31,955 bases of DNA from an uncultured Fidelibacterota bacterium (GTDB lineage Bacteria > Fidelibacterota > Marinisomatia > Marinisomatales > UBA1611): the NCBI GenBank assembly GCA_913040915.1, contig CAJWHW010000025.1, positions 1 through 31,955 on the forward strand, given 5' to 3'. Of the stretch, positions 21,001 through 31,955 are shown piece by piece (position 1 is the stretch's first letter; each line of letters opens with the position of its first letter). The position numbers were made by a program.

Positions 21001-24000
21001 TATTTGTATCTAAAACTGCTGCATTCGTTAAAATGAAATCAAACCGATCATCCATACCACCATAATTCTGGCCATTGTAGTATGCTCGGGTGGCCTGGGT
21101 GTGCACATCTTCAAATGCAGGATTATTATGCCAATTTCCAACTTCATCTATAGGGTCAAATAAACGGCCGTTATTAATTGTTTGAGAATCAGTTAAATTA
21201 TCCCAGGCATCTTCACCTGAGTTATAAATATTAAAATCGCCTAAAACAAAAACAAAATCTAAATCATCTAACTCATTTAAATGATTTCTGAGTGCTTCTG
21301 CTTCTTCTGCTCTTTCTGCTTCATCACTACTTCCGGTTCCTGCTTTAAAATGAGCACCGTAAAGATGAATCTCAACCCCCGATGAAATATGACGCATAAC
21401 AAACTCAATTACATCCCTGTTTCCCCAATTACTAGTAGTGTTGACTGTAGTTGTACTGATGAAATCAAATATTTCACTCTTATAATAAAGGCCAATGTCC
21501 AAATTGGTATTGGATTGATCTGTGAAAGGTGCGCCAGAAAATAAACCTACTTCAATTTGATCCAATACGTCTGTTACCAACGCATTAAAACCATCTGCCC
21601 CATCCAGTTCTTGGGCAATAATGATATCTGGATCAATTTCTTCAATAACCATCTTGATATCATCTTCGCGAGCATCATTATCTCCAGTAAAGTTCCATAA
21701 GTTATAAGTCATAATTCGCGCAGTTGAAGCATGGAGATTTAACATAAAAAGAAAATAGATAAAAATTCTCATTTAATTTTCTATAATAGCTTCTATTCGA
21801 CCGATTTCCAATTCTTTATGATTCTTTAAAATCTTCGAACTGAATTTATCTAATTTTTTGAATTCTAAATCAGTTAATAAATTCAGATGTTCTAATAATT
21901 TCATTGTAGCAACTGATAAGGCTCTAAAATTTCCATCAAGGACTTTTATAGCTAAACCAATACTACCTCCATCTGATTTTTTTAAGGCAATTCCTCTTAT
22001 AGATTCACCGCCAATTTTTGTAATACCACGGCCAGCAAGAGCATCAATAAACAGAGTATCAAAACAATTTGTACCACTAACTAAAATTGGGTTCGTACAC
22101 ATTGCTTGGTAAACACGACTCAACTCTGGAGTTGTCTCTGCAGCTAAATTTTGAAAAAGTTTTGCAATATTTTCCAAAGTCATAAAAGGTGTTGGCGCTG
22201 AACAACCATCAATCTCAGTTGGAATATTTTGTAGTCCGGTCAATGATTCAATTAATTTAAAAATAGTTTGTTGTACCGGATGATTTTTTTGTATGTAGCC
22301 CTTGATCCCATGTCCTAAATATTTTGCCAATGCTAACATGCCGGCGTGTTTCCCACTGCAATTATTATGACTAGCATTTGCTTTTTTACCATCTTTAATC
22401 AATTTATGATGACTTGCTGTGTCTGATGGAGGATGTATTCCACATTCAAAATCATCTAATGTTAGGCCAATTTTCCCTAGCATAGACTGAGCCGTATTTA
22501 CATGAATTTCTTCTCCGGTGTGAGATGCACACATCAAAGCAATTTCTTTATCAGAGAAATTAGCTTCATCAACAGCACCAGTCTTAACTGCGGCAGCGGC
22601 TTGAAACGGCTTTAATGCGGAACGGATACAGGTTAAATAATTAGGGTCGCCTGTTGAATAAACAGTCTGTCCAGTTTCATCAACAGCGACGGCAAAAACA
22701 ACGTGAAAACTTTCAGTTAAGGCACCACGGGTTACTTTGCAAATGATTGACATTAAAATCAGTGAAGCATTTTAGAAACAAACTCAAATTTAAATCCTTT
22801 TTTCTGAATATCAGGAATATGTTTTTTTAAGATTTTTAATGTTTTTGGCTTAACATGCCCGATGCCAATTGCTGCACCTGACTTTTCAGCTTGTTTCACT
22901 AACTCATTAAGTTGATCTAGAATTTTCATTTCATCATCATCATTATCCAAAAATACATTACGTCTGGCTGTGGGAACACCAAATACTTCCATTGTGGATT
23001 CAGCCACAGTTTCTGCGGTTGTACGACTATCCACGAAGAACAGATTACGCTCCTTTATAACACGAGCGACATTGGACATGACTCGCTGGTCTGCAGATGC
23101 TTTAGAACCTTGATGATTATTCATCCCAATTGCAGTAGGAATTTCATCTAAAGCAGTTCGAATTCTTTGTTGAATTTTCTCATTATTCATGTCAGTAGAT
23201 AAAACAAAATCTTCTTCTCCTCCCTTATTGGATAAATTTTCCATTGGCATATGAACAATCACTTCATAACCTTTTCTGACTGCTATTTCTCCAAATTTTG
23301 TACTGTATTCATGACCTGGAATTACAGCGTAAGTCAAGCGAGCATCTAATTCCAAGAAGCCATCAGACACTTCATCATTCCTATACCCAAAATCATCAAT
23401 GATAATACCAATAGTACCCTTCAAATTTGGAAGAGGAACTTCAGGAGATAACTTGTGTGCTTTCTTTTTTACCTTATTAGAAATTTTTTCGGCAGTGGTT
23501 TGCTGTTCTTCCAGAGCTGAAATTCTATCATCCATTCTTTTGATGAATAACAGTAATATGACAATAGTGGCTACAAGAAAAAAATCTAATGATATTTTAA
23601 AGTTTTTCTTTTTCATGGTAACCGAATTTGAATGGTAAAAATTTGAGGTGTACCTAAGTATTGAGATCCAAATTGCACTGCATATTTTATTTGGTAGATT
23701 CCTAATATCAGCCCTAAACCAGCCGAACTCTCAATCACTTTTTCTGATGTAGCAAAACCTCCCATAATTTCTAGTCGGTTCCAACGAAAATGGTTACCAA
23801 AATAAAATTTTGCGCTTGGAGATAACTTGTTTAACTCAATTGAACCAAATAAAGTATTCTGATATTCATTAAAATTGATCACTTTAGAAATACCTCCTAG
23901 TAGCCGAAGAGGTAAATTAGGACTTGATGTTTCCAATTTAGTCATAATACCTATGTTTTGGAGCGATAAACCAAATTTTAATTTATTTTTAAAAAATCTG

Positions 24001-30000: not shown

Positions 30001-31955
30001 TTGAACCGGTGTGATCGAAAAATTTGAGCCAAATCGTAATTGAGTACTAATATTTTGACCTTCCCTTGCTAAATCATCTGACCAGCGAAAATTTGCTGTA
30101 TAGTTAAATGAAGGCTTAAGCCATTTCATGATCCCGGGATTGAAAGTTGTATTAAAACTTTCTGTAGTTTGGGTTACTGTACCAGGATCAAAATCTCTCA
30201 ATGCAGTCCATGCATAACCACGAAAATCATTGAGTTTACTTTGTCCGCTCCAAGCATATTTTGTGGATAAACCATTTGTGAATTTATAGTCTAAATTAAT
30301 ACTTCGATTTAAACCAAAGTTATACGTCTCTGGACTTCGATCTCCAACTCGGGGTTGATTCCAGTTTAATTTTTCATTTAGGTTTAACCCTGTTTTAAAT
30401 GATGAAGGTGTATAAAAAAATTGAAAATCTCCTAATGTTTTCCCTAAAATGGGTAAATTTTTTGCCCAGTTAAAAGGTTTTATATAATTATTCCGTCCAA
30501 AAGGAATATAGTATGAAAATTTGCCGCTATAGGATTCTGTCCATTTTTCAGCATAGGTCACATCGGATGACCGGGACTGAGAGGCACTTAAGCTGACAGA
30601 AACATTATCCACAGTGTATTTCATGAATCGATTATCTGATTTTCCTGATTTTTTAAGAGATGTACTCAATGAAACTGATTCAGTGATAGTCATGATAGAA
30701 TCAGGTGTATTATTGGGATCTACTAGGATATCTTCTCCAGAAAAATATTTTGGCCTACTTTGGTTTCGCGTTAAAGAACCATTTAATGGAACAGAAATAC
30801 CCCAGGATTTAGGAAGTAAACGATGTAAATCAATTTTCCCTGAAACATTCAAATTTTCAGATGTATTTGTTGAACGGGAAAGCCTTTCTTGGAGCCGATG
30901 GTATTCCGCATCCTGCCTACTGTAAACTATTGTTGCAGAGCCCAAATCAGATAAACTCATCTTCGATTGAATACGCATGGCCATACCTTTTTCTTTTTTC
31001 ACTCCACTTAAACGCAATTCATCTAACCATACTTCACCAGATATAGGTTCTTCCCCTGTATTTTTCACTCCTACAGAAAAATATTGGAGACGATTTAAAG
31101 CAGGTTTTCCAACAATTTTTACACGCTTTCCAGTCAATTCTCCATTGGAGTTAGTAAAATAATATTTTCTAATATCGGAAGAATCAATCAAAATATCTGT
31201 TTCTCTGAATTTCTTAATTTTTGAAGTGTCAGCTTGTTTTAAGGCTGTAAGCCAATCCAAATCTATTTTGAAACTGTTACGATTTTCATCCTCATCCCAT
31301 CCATTATAAACAGGTTTCGTGATTTCATAAAATGCATCGCCTAAACCATATTTCAAAAATACTTCTACATCTGTTTCCAAAGAAGTGATCCATGGACTAT
31401 TTCCATAAACATACATTTTCATAAAATCATAAGTCATAAAACTTCGCTTTTGATTATCATTTAAAGTGTAAAGAGTTTTCTGAGCAATTCCAGTTGCCTT
31501 CGATGGTAGATTATCAAACTTCAAAACAAGCGATTGTTCCTTTGAACGGATTTCATTCAGTCTGTCATATTCTCCTTTCACCCCTTTCGGTGGTGTATAA
31601 TCAGCATTATCTTCAGTATTCACAACCGCTACTTGAAAAGTAGGATCCTCTTCAGTATTGGTAATTCCAAAATTATTTCTTTGAAAACGACTATTAATCG
31701 TGTCAATTCCAGTTGTATCTAATGCGGTTATACCCATTTCCTGCCATTCATTGCCCACTATTTCTATTTTAGCGATTTCAAGTTGTCTTAGGGTTGAATC
31801 TAATCCTGTAACCGCCAGGCGAACATAACGAATCTCATTCCATTCGATATTTTTTACCTGTTTAAAATCCGATAGTGGGACACGAAATAATCGCCAACCC
31901 GTTTCTTTACCATTTTTTTCTGTTTCACCTGCAAGATAAGTGGTATCGGTCAATA

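What a model noticed while it worked through the whole genome (the two positions that open the first line are those of the whole stretch)
21773..31955. Type IX secretion system with ~50 cargo proteins but no PorK/L/M/N (GldKLMN) core
The genome encodes the T9SS translocon SprA/Sov (split over C25:28840-31955 and C14:3-3278), the sortase PorU (C9:8202-11951), five PorV/PorQ-family barrels, PorX, a glutaminyl cyclase and 48 proteins with type-A sorting domains, and C25:23613-28838 directly downstream of sprA holds a lipoprotein, a PorZ-like beta-propeller with CTD and two PorQ/PorP-like barrels. No GldK, GldL, GldM or GldN homologue is detectable here or in closed relatives, so the proton-driven PorLM motor and PorKN ring thought to be the core of all T9SS are missing or replaced by unrelated proteins in this lineage.
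Evidence so far: NCBIfam table: SprA, PorU, PorV x5, PorX, 48 type-A CTD proteins, none of GldK/L/M/N. Six-frame family searches: GldM and GldL 0 of 13 relatives over cut-off; GldL, GldM, GldK, GldN 0 of 5 over cut-off in G115, G052 (one contig each), G012, G136, G097/G000, while SprA is over cut-off in 5 of 5. MotA homologues and FliG are also missing from G115, G052, G012, so they are not the substitute. Positive control: the same GldK, GldL, GldM and GldN searches are each over cut-off in 3 of 3 Bacteroidota genomes (Zobellia, Pedobacter, Rufibacter) and in 0 of 2 Ignavibacteria, although SprA is over cut-off in all 5, so the models work and the gap is not confined to this phylum.
(Added by a program. 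Inside this text positions count along the whole contig: contig position 1 is position 1 of the stretch shown here. "Call 12" and the like, gene names such as g00115 and contig names such as C1 are that model's own, and its searches are not shown. The text may have been shortened before it was handed on; [...] marks where a part breaks off. The agent that wrote the report below was given it as the finding of a first reader that could run no searches.)

Follow-up and report, generated by a model that had tools for sequence, protein, structure and literature searches.

The report
Type IX secretion without its motor
A marine Marinimicrobia (SAR406) genome, like 120 relatives, encodes the outer-membrane half of the type IX protein secretion system and dozens of cargo proteins, but no recognisable copy of the proton-driven motor and ring thought to power it.

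Summary
Window 21773-31955 carries the C-terminal half of the translocon gene sprA. A conserved operon follows it: glutaminyl cyclase, a lipoprotein, a PorZ-like propeller with a sorting domain, and two PorV/PorQ-like barrels.

In 121 genomes of the phylum (118 at least 90% complete):
- SprA is over cut-off in 121.
- PorU matches in 108.
- GldL, GldM, GldN and GldK are over cut-off in 0.

Closed genomes show the same pattern. One has PorU and 77 sorting-domain matches, but only a single exbB-exbD-exbD-tonB stator. Four genomes of about 1 Mb keep SprA, PorV-like barrels and a few cargoes.

I could not run a Bacteroidota positive control for the four models.

Possible substitutes:
- A pair of unnamed membrane proteins on contig C7, with the topology, size and gene order of gldL-gldM. 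It occurs in only 12 of 121 genomes. Homology to GldLM is unproven.
- A MotAB/FliF-like/FliG-like cluster, found in 97 of 121 genomes but missing from 13 that have PorU.

Neither is universal, so how the system is energised stays open. No paper in the held library reports this gap.

The parts
28840..31955 (-). C-terminal half (1037 aa) of the T9SS outer-membrane translocon SprA/Sov. The gene runs off the contig end and continues at G000:C14:3-3275.
   Evidence: TIGR04189 292.7 bits (cut-off 200); Pfam SprA_N
27897..28838 (-). Lipoprotein type II glutaminyl cyclase (M28 fold). It stays directly after sprA even in ~1 Mb genomes.
   Evidence: Peptidase_M28 111.8 bits. PDB glutamine cyclotransferases 6QQL, 6QRO, 4FUU at E 2e-46 to 3e-49. 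Synteny.
27040..27900 (-). Conserved lipoprotein of unknown function, limited to this phylum. The likely start is the Met at residue 11.
   Evidence: Lipobox in the sequence. No family above cut-off. No PDB match. Atlas clusters are Fidelibacterota only. Syntenic ORF recovered in 34 of 41 related loci.
25389..27059 (-). PorZ-like protein: signal peptide, one beta-propeller, C-terminal type A sorting domain.
   Evidence: AlphaFold pLDDT 83.4, pTM 0.79. Foldseek PorZ 5M11 E 4.5e-11, TMq 0.40, 16% identity, alongside BT4663-type propellers. Weak PorU-CTD match at residues 449-554.
24463..25389 (-). PorV/PorQ-family outer-membrane barrel; the likely PorQ-like anchor for the PorZ-like protein.
   Evidence: NF033709 76.9 bits (cut-off 90); PorQ and PorV models weaker. 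Syntenic ORF recovered in 33 loci.
23613..24569 (-). Second putative barrel with a weak PorQ match. The annotated start overlaps the previous gene, so the true start is probably further downstream.
   Evidence: NF033711 35.8 bits; overlap seen
22759..23616 (-). Divergent polysaccharide deacetylase with an N-terminal membrane anchor, syntenic with the operon. A role in modifying the surface glycan anchor is inferred only.
   Evidence: Polysacc_deac_2 233 bits; synteny
20036..21772 (-). T9SS cargo: endonuclease/exonuclease/phosphatase domain, lamin-tail domain, type A sorting domain.
   Evidence: Pfam and TIGR04183 37.5 bits
14901..17858 (-). T9SS cargo: cytochrome c domain, ExeM/NucH-like nuclease, type A sorting domain.
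9430..10437 (-). PorV/PorQ-family barrel over cut-off, next to a TonB-dependent-receptor-like gene (10437-13193).
   Evidence: NF033709 190 bits (cut-off 90)

Best explanation
The region encodes the outer-membrane part of a reduced type IX secretion system of a Marinimicrobia (SAR406) bacterium.

Inferred pathway, by analogy with Bacteroidota:
1. Proteins are exported by Sec.
2. Many then begin with glutamine, which the cyclase encoded next to sprA converts to pyroglutamate.
3. The C-terminal sorting domain is bound by a PorV-family shuttle at the SprA pore.
4. PorU, together with the PorZ-like and PorQ-like pair, removes the domain and fixes cargo to the cell surface.

What differs is shown, not inferred: the whole phylum lacks recognisable PorK/L/M/N. 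The canonical trans-envelope motor and ring are therefore not part of this system. I take this to be a motor-less form of the T9SS, possibly the ancestral one. Release of cargo would then need no dedicated motor, or would draw on a non-homologous energiser. The only stator found in every genome tested is ExbB-ExbD-TonB. Which of these holds is inferred and unresolved.
For: Phylum survey of 121 genomes:
- SprA over cut-off in 121 of 121.
- PorU at E <= 1e-40 in 108 of 121, over cut-off in 96.
- GldL over cut-off in 0 of 121; the 7 weak hits fall in large unrelated proteins.
- GldM 0 of 121 and GldN 0 of 121 at E <= 0.01.
- GldK 0 of 121 over cut-off; only FGE-sulfatase paralogues, and none in the streamlined genus (0 of 11).

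Closed genome G016 has PorU at 613 bits, 77 sorting-domain matches and 11 PorV-family matches. It has a single MotA/ExbB-family gene with the same neighbouring ORF pattern as the annotated G000 and G065 exbB-exbD-exbD-tonB operons (its own neighbours were not scanned), and no FliG.

The closed 0.97 Mb genome G065 keeps rdgB-sprA-cyclase, two PorV-family barrels and 4 sorting-domain matches. It lacks PorU.

The operon order sprA, cyclase, lipoprotein, PorZ-like, PorQ-like is conserved in about 30 of 41 related loci, down to 33% SprA identity.

Lauber et al. 2024 (PMC10994853; passages read) report that loading cargo onto SprA-PorV needs no energy. Only release does.
Against: All absence evidence comes from profile HMMs run through a six-frame pre-filter. 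I could run no positive control on a Bacteroidota genome, and the tool itself warns of this.

In Flavobacterium, release of cargo from the translocon does need the motor (PMC10994853), so a motor-less system needs a new explanation.

This genome does hold two candidate energisers: the C7 pair and the MotAB/FliF-like/FliG-like cluster.

SprE/PorW, PorT, Skp and PorX were not surveyed. No expression or secretion data exist.
Confidence: 0.6

Rival explanations
1. The motor exists but is too divergent for the models. In this genome it would be the C7 module. This comprises a 132 aa protein with two membrane helices and an invariant Glu in the second; a 479 aa single-pass protein with four periplasmic domains; and two signal-peptide proteins ending in Phe. 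A repeat-rich lipoprotein gene precedes it. It would act as a GldLM-like proton-driven stator and arm.
For: - The architecture scan singled the pair out.
- Gene order, sizes and topology mirror gldK-L-M-N.
- Conserved charged residues sit in the membrane helices of both proteins.
- The AlphaFold model (pLDDT 92) shows a long N-terminal helix followed by four domains, the last three Ig-like.
- The small/large pair is adjacent in 37 of 49 metagenome loci.
- Distant ~500 aa relatives come from MAGs named Chlorobi, Kapabacteria and Ignavibacteriae. Two of the loci whose neighbours were scanned have a Por_Secre_tail gene close by (L124, L138).
Against: - Found in only 12 of 121 genomes of the phylum, with both a single protein and a 51-row profile. 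It is absent from closed PorU-bearing genomes.
- No Pfam or NCBIfam match.
- Profiles do not hit GldL/GldM/PorL/PorM chains in the PDB at E <= 10.
- The fold-search lists hold only generic Ig-like proteins.
- The first periplasmic domain is mostly beta. As I recall, GldM D1 is helical.
Confidence: 0.15
2. A flagellum-derived mini-rotor powers secretion. It consists of MotA, MotB, a FliF-like two-pass protein and a divergent FliG (G000:C1:703-5139, preceded by a TPR protein).
For: - The cluster is annotated by Pfam.
- G000 and G025 have it but lack the flagellar export gate FlhA.
- FliG_C is in 97 of 121 genomes and 62 of 66 genera. It is absent from the streamlined genus, which also lacks PorU.
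- It would be a rotary, proton-driven device, as GldLM is.
Against: 13 genomes have PorU but no FliG. Among them is closed G016, with 77 sorting-domain matches. There is no gene linkage to T9SS genes. Part of the 97 are true flagellar FliG (130-150 bits).
Confidence: 0.08
3. ExbB-ExbD-TonB, the only stator present in every genome tested, supplies the energy for releasing cargo. It may act through a TonB-box-bearing outer-membrane partner.
For: PF01618 is in 5 of 5 genomes. It is the sole copy in G065 and G016; the exbB-exbD-exbD-tonB operon was annotated in G000 and G065, and G016 shows the same ORF pattern. In the window a TonB-dependent-receptor-like gene abuts a PorV-family gene.
Against: There is no specific link. 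That adjacency is not kept next to the PorV-family genes of three streamlined genomes. SprA has no plug domain by the models used. TonB systems are needed for nutrient uptake in any case.
Confidence: 0.12
4. The gap is an artefact of an incomplete MAG or of the search pipeline.
For: G000 is 85% complete in 71 contigs. No positive control was possible.
Against: The result is the same in 118 genomes at least 90% complete. These include four single-contig genomes (G016, G025, G065, G091). SprA, PorU, PorV and sorting-domain models, also built from Bacteroidota, work through the same pipeline.
Confidence: 0.03

Closest known systems
Bacteroidota type IX secretion system (Porphyromonas gingivalis Por, Flavobacterium johnsoniae Gld/Spr)
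   Same: SprA/Sov translocon, PorV-family shuttle barrels, PorU C25 sortase, a PorZ-like propeller with a PorQ-like barrel, type A sorting domains on about 50 proteins, a type II glutaminyl cyclase, and Gln after the signal peptide.
   Different: No PorK/GldK, PorL/GldL, PorM/GldM or PorN/GldN over cut-off in 121 genomes. The PorZ-like protein has one propeller (556 aa model) where solved PorZ has two (recalled). sprA, the cyclase and the attachment genes form one operon. Streamlined relatives also lack PorU.
GldLM/PorLM proton-driven motor
   Same: The C7 pair shares its gene order, sizes (132-300 aa and 470-520 aa), two-helix plus one-helix topology, a conserved acidic residue in the second helix of the small protein, and a multi-domain periplasmic arm ending in Ig-like domains.
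   Different: No sequence, profile or fold match was obtained. The first periplasmic domain is mostly beta. The distribution within the phylum is patchy. In other lineages the pair often sits next to lptF/lptG rather than gldK/gldN.
Flagellar rotor-stator core (MotAB, FliF, FliG)
   Same: Pfam matches to MotA_ExbB, MotB_plug plus OmpA, FliG N, M and C domains, and a weak FliF C-terminal domain. The FliF-like protein has two membrane helices and an acidic tail.
   Different: G000 and G025 have no FlhA export gate, so there is no flagellum. The function is unknown.

Membership tests
Type IX secretion system (as defined in Bacteroidota) | SprA/Sov outer-membrane translocon | tested here: met
   TIGR04189 over cut-off in G000 (two contig ends) and in 121 of 121 genomes
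Type IX secretion system (as defined in Bacteroidota) | PorV-type shuttle barrel | tested here: met
   NF033709 190 bits at window 9430-10437. 5 of 5 further genomes over cut-off. The PorV equivalog model itself stays below its cut-off.
Type IX secretion system (as defined in Bacteroidota) | PorU sortase | tested here: met
   NF033707 563.5 bits at C9:8202-11951. 108 of 121 genomes at E <= 1e-40.
Type IX secretion system (as defined in Bacteroidota) | Cargo with type A C-terminal sorting domain | tested here: met
   52 matches in G000. 73-79 in three closed relatives and 4 in G065.
Type IX secretion system (as defined in Bacteroidota) | PorZ/PorQ attachment pair | tested here: met
   Fold match to PorZ 5M11. 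The adjacent PorV/PorQ-family barrel scores below cut-off. Met at the level of fold and family, not orthology.
Type IX secretion system (as defined in Bacteroidota) | PorL/GldL and PorM/GldM motor | tested here: not met
   TIGR03513 and TIGR03517: 0 of 121 over cut-off, and nothing in G000 at E <= 10. No Bacteroidota positive control was run.
Type IX secretion system (as defined in Bacteroidota) | PorK/GldK and PorN/GldN ring | tested here: not met
   TIGR03525 0 of 121 over cut-off (best 135 bits against 350, a lone FGE-sulfatase gene). TIGR03523 0 of 121.
Type IX secretion system (as defined in Bacteroidota) | PorW/SprE, PorT/SprT, SkpA, PorX/PorY | not tested
   I did not have verified model accessions for these, so no search was run.
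GldLM/PorLM motor family (for the C7 pair) | Sequence or profile similarity to GldL and GldM | tested here: not met
   No NCBIfam or Pfam match. Profiles A1 and A2 find no GldL/GldM/PorL/PorM chain in the PDB at E <= 10.
GldLM/PorLM motor family (for the C7 pair) | Fold of the periplasmic arm like GldM/PorM | tested here: inconclusive
   The whole-model searches are dominated by generic Ig-like hits. Single domains were not searched.
GldLM/PorLM motor family (for the C7 pair) | Two-helix subunit with a protonatable residue, beside a single-pass partner in one operon | tested here: met
   Alignments A1 and A3. Adjacent in 37 of 49 loci.
GldLM/PorLM motor family (for the C7 pair) | 5:2 complex that turns under proton flow | not testable with these tools
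   Needs a multimer model beyond the chain limit, or an experiment.

The most novel reading that the evidence does not exclude
In Marinimicrobia, including ~1 Mb streamlined cells, SprA with a PorV-family shuttle exports proteins with no dedicated trans-envelope motor or ring. On this reading the PorLM/PorKN energy chain is a later Bacteroidota addition, perhaps tied to gliding, and the ancestral T9SS is either unpowered or borrows TonB-ExbBD. A further possibility is that the unnamed two-helix/one-helix pair is a new class of envelope motor. That pair occurs in 12 of 121 genomes here and in Ignavibacteria-, Kapabacteria- and Chlorobi-labelled MAGs.
Probability: 0.35. Interest if true: 0.85.

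Novelty: new variant of a known kind. Interest (0 to 1): 0.65.

Why it matters
PorK/L/M/N are treated as the core of every T9SS. Detection tools require them, so they report the system only in Bacteroidota (TXSScan, PMC4793230; passages read).

A whole abundant ocean phylum keeps the translocon, shuttle, sortase and 50-80 cargo proteins without them. Either protein release from SprA can be energised in another way, or it needs no motor. This defines a natural minimal T9SS: SprA, PorV-family barrels and the cyclase in ~1 Mb genomes. That makes the question of what the motor actually does testable.

It also means secretion capacity in Marinimicrobia and related phyla is under-called by current annotation rules. 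This matters for models of particle and polymer degradation in the ocean.

Tried and rejected
- MAG incompleteness as the cause. Rejected: the result is the same in 118 high-quality and four single-contig genomes.
- The GldK hit on C35. It is a lone FGE-sulfatase gene (PF03781, 279 bits) between an aldose epimerase gene and a DNA polymerase gene, with no L/M/N-like neighbours. Paralogues are absent from the streamlined genus, which still has SprA.
- Genes upstream of sprA on C14. They are rdgB, a small ORF and then unrelated genes; no motor.
- Neighbours of porU. These are housekeeping genes.
- Architecture scan. It gave three pairs. The C19 pair is DUF2914 plus a phosphodiester glycosidase. 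The window pair is the second barrel plus the deacetylase. Both were rejected.
- Complex prediction on the C7 small protein with residues 1-110 of the large one. It returned no answer.
- ESM Atlas. It gave only Ig-like leads for the 479 aa protein and own-phylum clusters for the 286 aa lipoprotein.
- Third gene of the C7 module. Its profile against PDB sequences found nothing.
- Attempt to use genomes behind L025, L044, L046 and L048 as a positive control. All gave 0 GldM matches, and L025 at least is a Marinimicrobia relative by its 63% SprA identity.
- TonB-dependent-receptor/PorV adjacency. It is not conserved in three streamlined genomes.
- Literature. Nine full-text searches found no paper stating that GldKLMN are absent from SprA-bearing non-Bacteroidota, and none joining Marinimicrobia, SAR406 or Marinisomatota with T9SS terms. 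Four possibly relevant papers are not held and were not seen: PMC3553832, PMC5446621, PMC7116788 and PMC6927815. The point may be made there.
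Full report
**Organism and locus.** The window is the whole contig C25 of a 1.86 Mb, 71-contig, 85%-complete MAG. 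Record titles of the closest SprA relatives name Candidatus Marinimicrobia / Neomarinimicrobiota, that is SAR406. All large ORFs lie on the minus strand.

The region of the finding opens at the contig end with the C-terminal 1037 aa of SprA/Sov (TIGR04189 292.7 bits). The N-terminal 1090 aa are at the start of contig C14. The model positions join (up to 1108 on C14, from 1132 on C25), and full-length relatives are about 2,070-2,130 aa. This is one gene cut by the assembly.

**The operon after sprA.**
- *27897-28838* is an M28-fold lipoprotein. Its best solved relatives are the type II glutaminyl cyclases of Porphyromonas, Tannerella and Bacteroides (E 2e-46 to 3e-49).
- *27040-27900* is a lipoprotein with no family and no solved relative. 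It is known only from this phylum.
- *25389-27059* has a signal peptide and a sorting-domain-like C terminus. Its AlphaFold model (26-row alignment, pLDDT 83.4) is a beta-propeller plus a beta-sandwich. Foldseek places PorZ (5M11) at E 4.5e-11, with the highest TM-score (0.40) among the first 16 ranks and the highest identity (16%) in the list. It sits among the BT4663-type sensor propellers.
- *24463-25389* is a PorV/PorQ-family barrel at 76.9 bits, under the 90-bit cut-off.
- *23613-24569* matches PorQ weakly.
- A divergent polysaccharide deacetylase, an asparaginase II and sorting-domain nucleases follow.

The gene order sprA, cyclase, lipoprotein, PorZ-like, PorQ-like is kept in about 30 of 41 related loci. 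L046 and L048, at 33-35% SprA identity, still keep sprA, the cyclase, the PorZ-like gene and the PorQ-like gene. The gene directly after sprA is the cyclase.

**The negative result, enlarged.**

| Model | G000 | 121 genomes of the phylum |
|---|---|---|
| SprA | present, over cut-off | 121 over cut-off |
| PorU | 563.5 bits | 108 at E <= 1e-40; 96 over cut-off |
| GldL | 0 at E <= 10 | 0 over cut-off; 7 weak hits to model positions 98-242 inside large proteins |
| GldM | 0 at E <= 10 | 0 at E <= 0.01 |
| GldN | 0 at E <= 10 | 0 at E <= 0.01 |
| GldK | one FGE-sulfatase gene on C35, 135 + 41 bits vs cut-off 350 | 0 over cut-off; FGE-like paralogues in 96 |

The sample covers 118 genomes at least 90% complete and 66 genera. 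The FGE-like paralogues are found in none of the 11 genomes of the streamlined genus.

Four single-contig genomes make assembly gaps an unlikely cause:
- *G016* (2.3 Mb) has PorU at 613 bits, 77 sorting-domain matches and 11 PorV-family matches.
- *G065* (0.97 Mb) keeps rdgB-sprA-cyclase, two PorV-family barrels and four sorting-domain matches, but no PorU.
- Three further ~1 Mb genomes also keep two PorV-family barrels.

A caveat stays. I could not obtain a Bacteroidota genome handle, so the four negative searches have no positive control of mine. The tool flags this. Other Bacteroidota-derived models (SprA, PorU, PorV family, sorting domain) do work through the same pipeline.

**Search for substitutes.** Three candidates were examined.

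*Known stators.* PF01618 is present in 5 of 5 genomes tested. G065 and G016 have exactly one copy. G065's lies in an annotated exbB-exbD-exbD-tonB operon, and G016's has the same neighbouring ORF pattern, though its neighbours were not scanned. G000 has three copies.

*A flagellum-like cluster.* One G000 copy lies in the cluster TPR, MotA, MotB, FliF-like, FliG (C1:123-5139). The FliF-like protein has two membrane helices, a coiled-coil periplasmic part and an acidic tail. G000 and G025 lack FlhA, so this is not a flagellum. FliG_C is in 97 of 121 genomes. However, 13 PorU-bearing genomes, closed G016 among them, lack it. It cannot be the general T9SS energiser.

*An unnamed gldLM-like pair.* I scanned my own 1,668 ORF calls for a small protein with two N-terminal membrane helices followed by a single-pass protein. 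The scan gave three pairs. One is a run of five unnamed genes on C7 (4166-12054, minus strand):
- a 643 aa repeat-rich lipoprotein;
- a 132 aa two-helix protein with an invariant Glu in helix 2;
- a 479 aa single-pass protein;
- two signal-peptide proteins ending in Phe.

The module is syntenic wherever it occurs. AlphaFold models the 479 aa protein with confidence (pLDDT 92). It has a 46-residue N-terminal helix, a mostly-beta first domain with two helices, and three Ig-like domains.

A profile search of 1.84 billion representatives found 131 relatives. The distant ones are ~500 aa and share the N-terminal helix motif. None of the 29 tested has a Pfam family. Those with names come from MAGs labelled Chlorobi, Kapabacteria, Ignavibacteriae or Bacteroidetes. 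In 49 metagenome loci the small partner lies immediately upstream in 37. In 6 of 14 loci examined an lptF/lptG permease gene precedes the pair. Sorting-domain genes lie nearby in two.

Three results limit it:
- It occurs in only 12 of 121 genomes of the phylum, by single protein and by 51-row profile.
- No family, profile or PDB-sequence match to GldL/GldM was obtained.
- The fold searches returned only generic Ig-like proteins.

The resemblance to GldLM therefore rests on architecture. My comparison with GldL/GldM key residues is from memory only.

**Reading.** The system works like a T9SS at the outer membrane. It fails the membership test for the Bacteroidota-type machine on its motor and ring.

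Lauber et al. 2024 (PMC10994853; passages) conclude that cargo loading onto SprA-PorV needs no energy and that release is the energy-requiring step. The open step here is therefore release. I commit to a motor-less or differently energised, probably ancestral, T9SS (0.6). The rivals are listed with their odds.

**Literature.**
- Reviews call the T9SS Bacteroidota-specific (PMC5445135, passages; PMC10515386, listing only) or place it in the FCB superphylum without listing components (PMC11205867 and PMC9127263, passages).
- TXSScan, whose model includes GldK-N, found the system in 60 of 97 Bacteroidetes genomes and in no other clade (PMC4793230, passages).
- The sorting domain is known across the FCB superphylum (PMC4737851, PMC3534657 and PMC6851124, passages).
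- None of nine searches found a statement of the GldKLMN gap outside Bacteroidota, or any T9SS analysis of Marinimicrobia. Four papers that might contain it are not held.

I rate this a new variant of a known kind, with interest 0.65.

Noticed in passing
G000:C1:123-5139 (not in the window): Cluster of TPR protein, MotA (261 aa), MotB (plug plus OmpA), a FliF-like 580 aa two-pass protein and a divergent FliG (311 aa), in a genome without FlhA. A divergent FliG is widespread in the phylum (FliG_C in 97 of 121 genomes, some of them true flagellar copies). This is a rotor-stator core with no flagellum and no known function.
   Followed up: partly
G000:C7:4166-12054 (locus L085): Five unnamed genes with gldK-L-M-N-like architecture. 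The two-helix/one-helix pair forms a family with no Pfam or NCBIfam match in these copies of the libraries. It occurs in 12 of 121 Marinimicrobia genomes and in Chlorobi-, Kapabacteria- and Ignavibacteriae-labelled MAGs, often just after lptF/lptG (6 of 14 loci).
   Followed up: yes
window 4007-27059, N-termini of secreted proteins: At least nine signal-peptide proteins of the window have Gln right after the predicted cleavage site, matching the glutaminyl cyclase encoded next to sprA. This is the pattern called the Bacteroidetes Q-rule (name recalled). A crude genome-wide count gave 158 of 390 signal-peptide-like ORFs with Gln near the end of the hydrophobic region.
   Followed up: partly
G065:C1 and genus g6 (11 genomes of 0.8-1.1 Mb): Streamlined relatives keep a ~2,070 aa SprA, the cyclase, two PorV-family barrels (checked in 4 genomes) and about four sorting-domain proteins (G065). 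They have lost PorU, the PorZ/PorQ-like genes next to sprA, FliG and the FGE-like genes.
   Followed up: partly
window 8129-13193: A TonB-dependent-receptor-like gene (CarboxypepD_reg plus Plug), a PorV-family barrel over cut-off and an NHL-repeat lipoprotein sit in a row. The adjacency was not seen next to the PorV-family genes of three streamlined genomes.
   Followed up: partly
window 14901-21772: Two sorting-domain cargo genes are nucleases: an ExeM/NucH-like nuclease with a cytochrome c domain, and an EEP nuclease with a lamin-tail domain. They flank a 710 aa unknown protein whose C terminus resembles a sorting-domain ending. This suggests surface DNA scavenging.
   Followed up: no
G026:C105:2-2587: A short contig carries an SprA fragment scoring 1048.8 bits, far above the ~600 bits typical of the phylum. 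It may be contamination from a Bacteroidota genome in that MAG.
   Followed up: no
L113, L114, L116 (family f19): In these genomes a ~296-317 aa protein sits directly upstream of the C7-type pair. Its best G000 match is the TonB gene (41-43% identity over part of its length).
   Followed up: no
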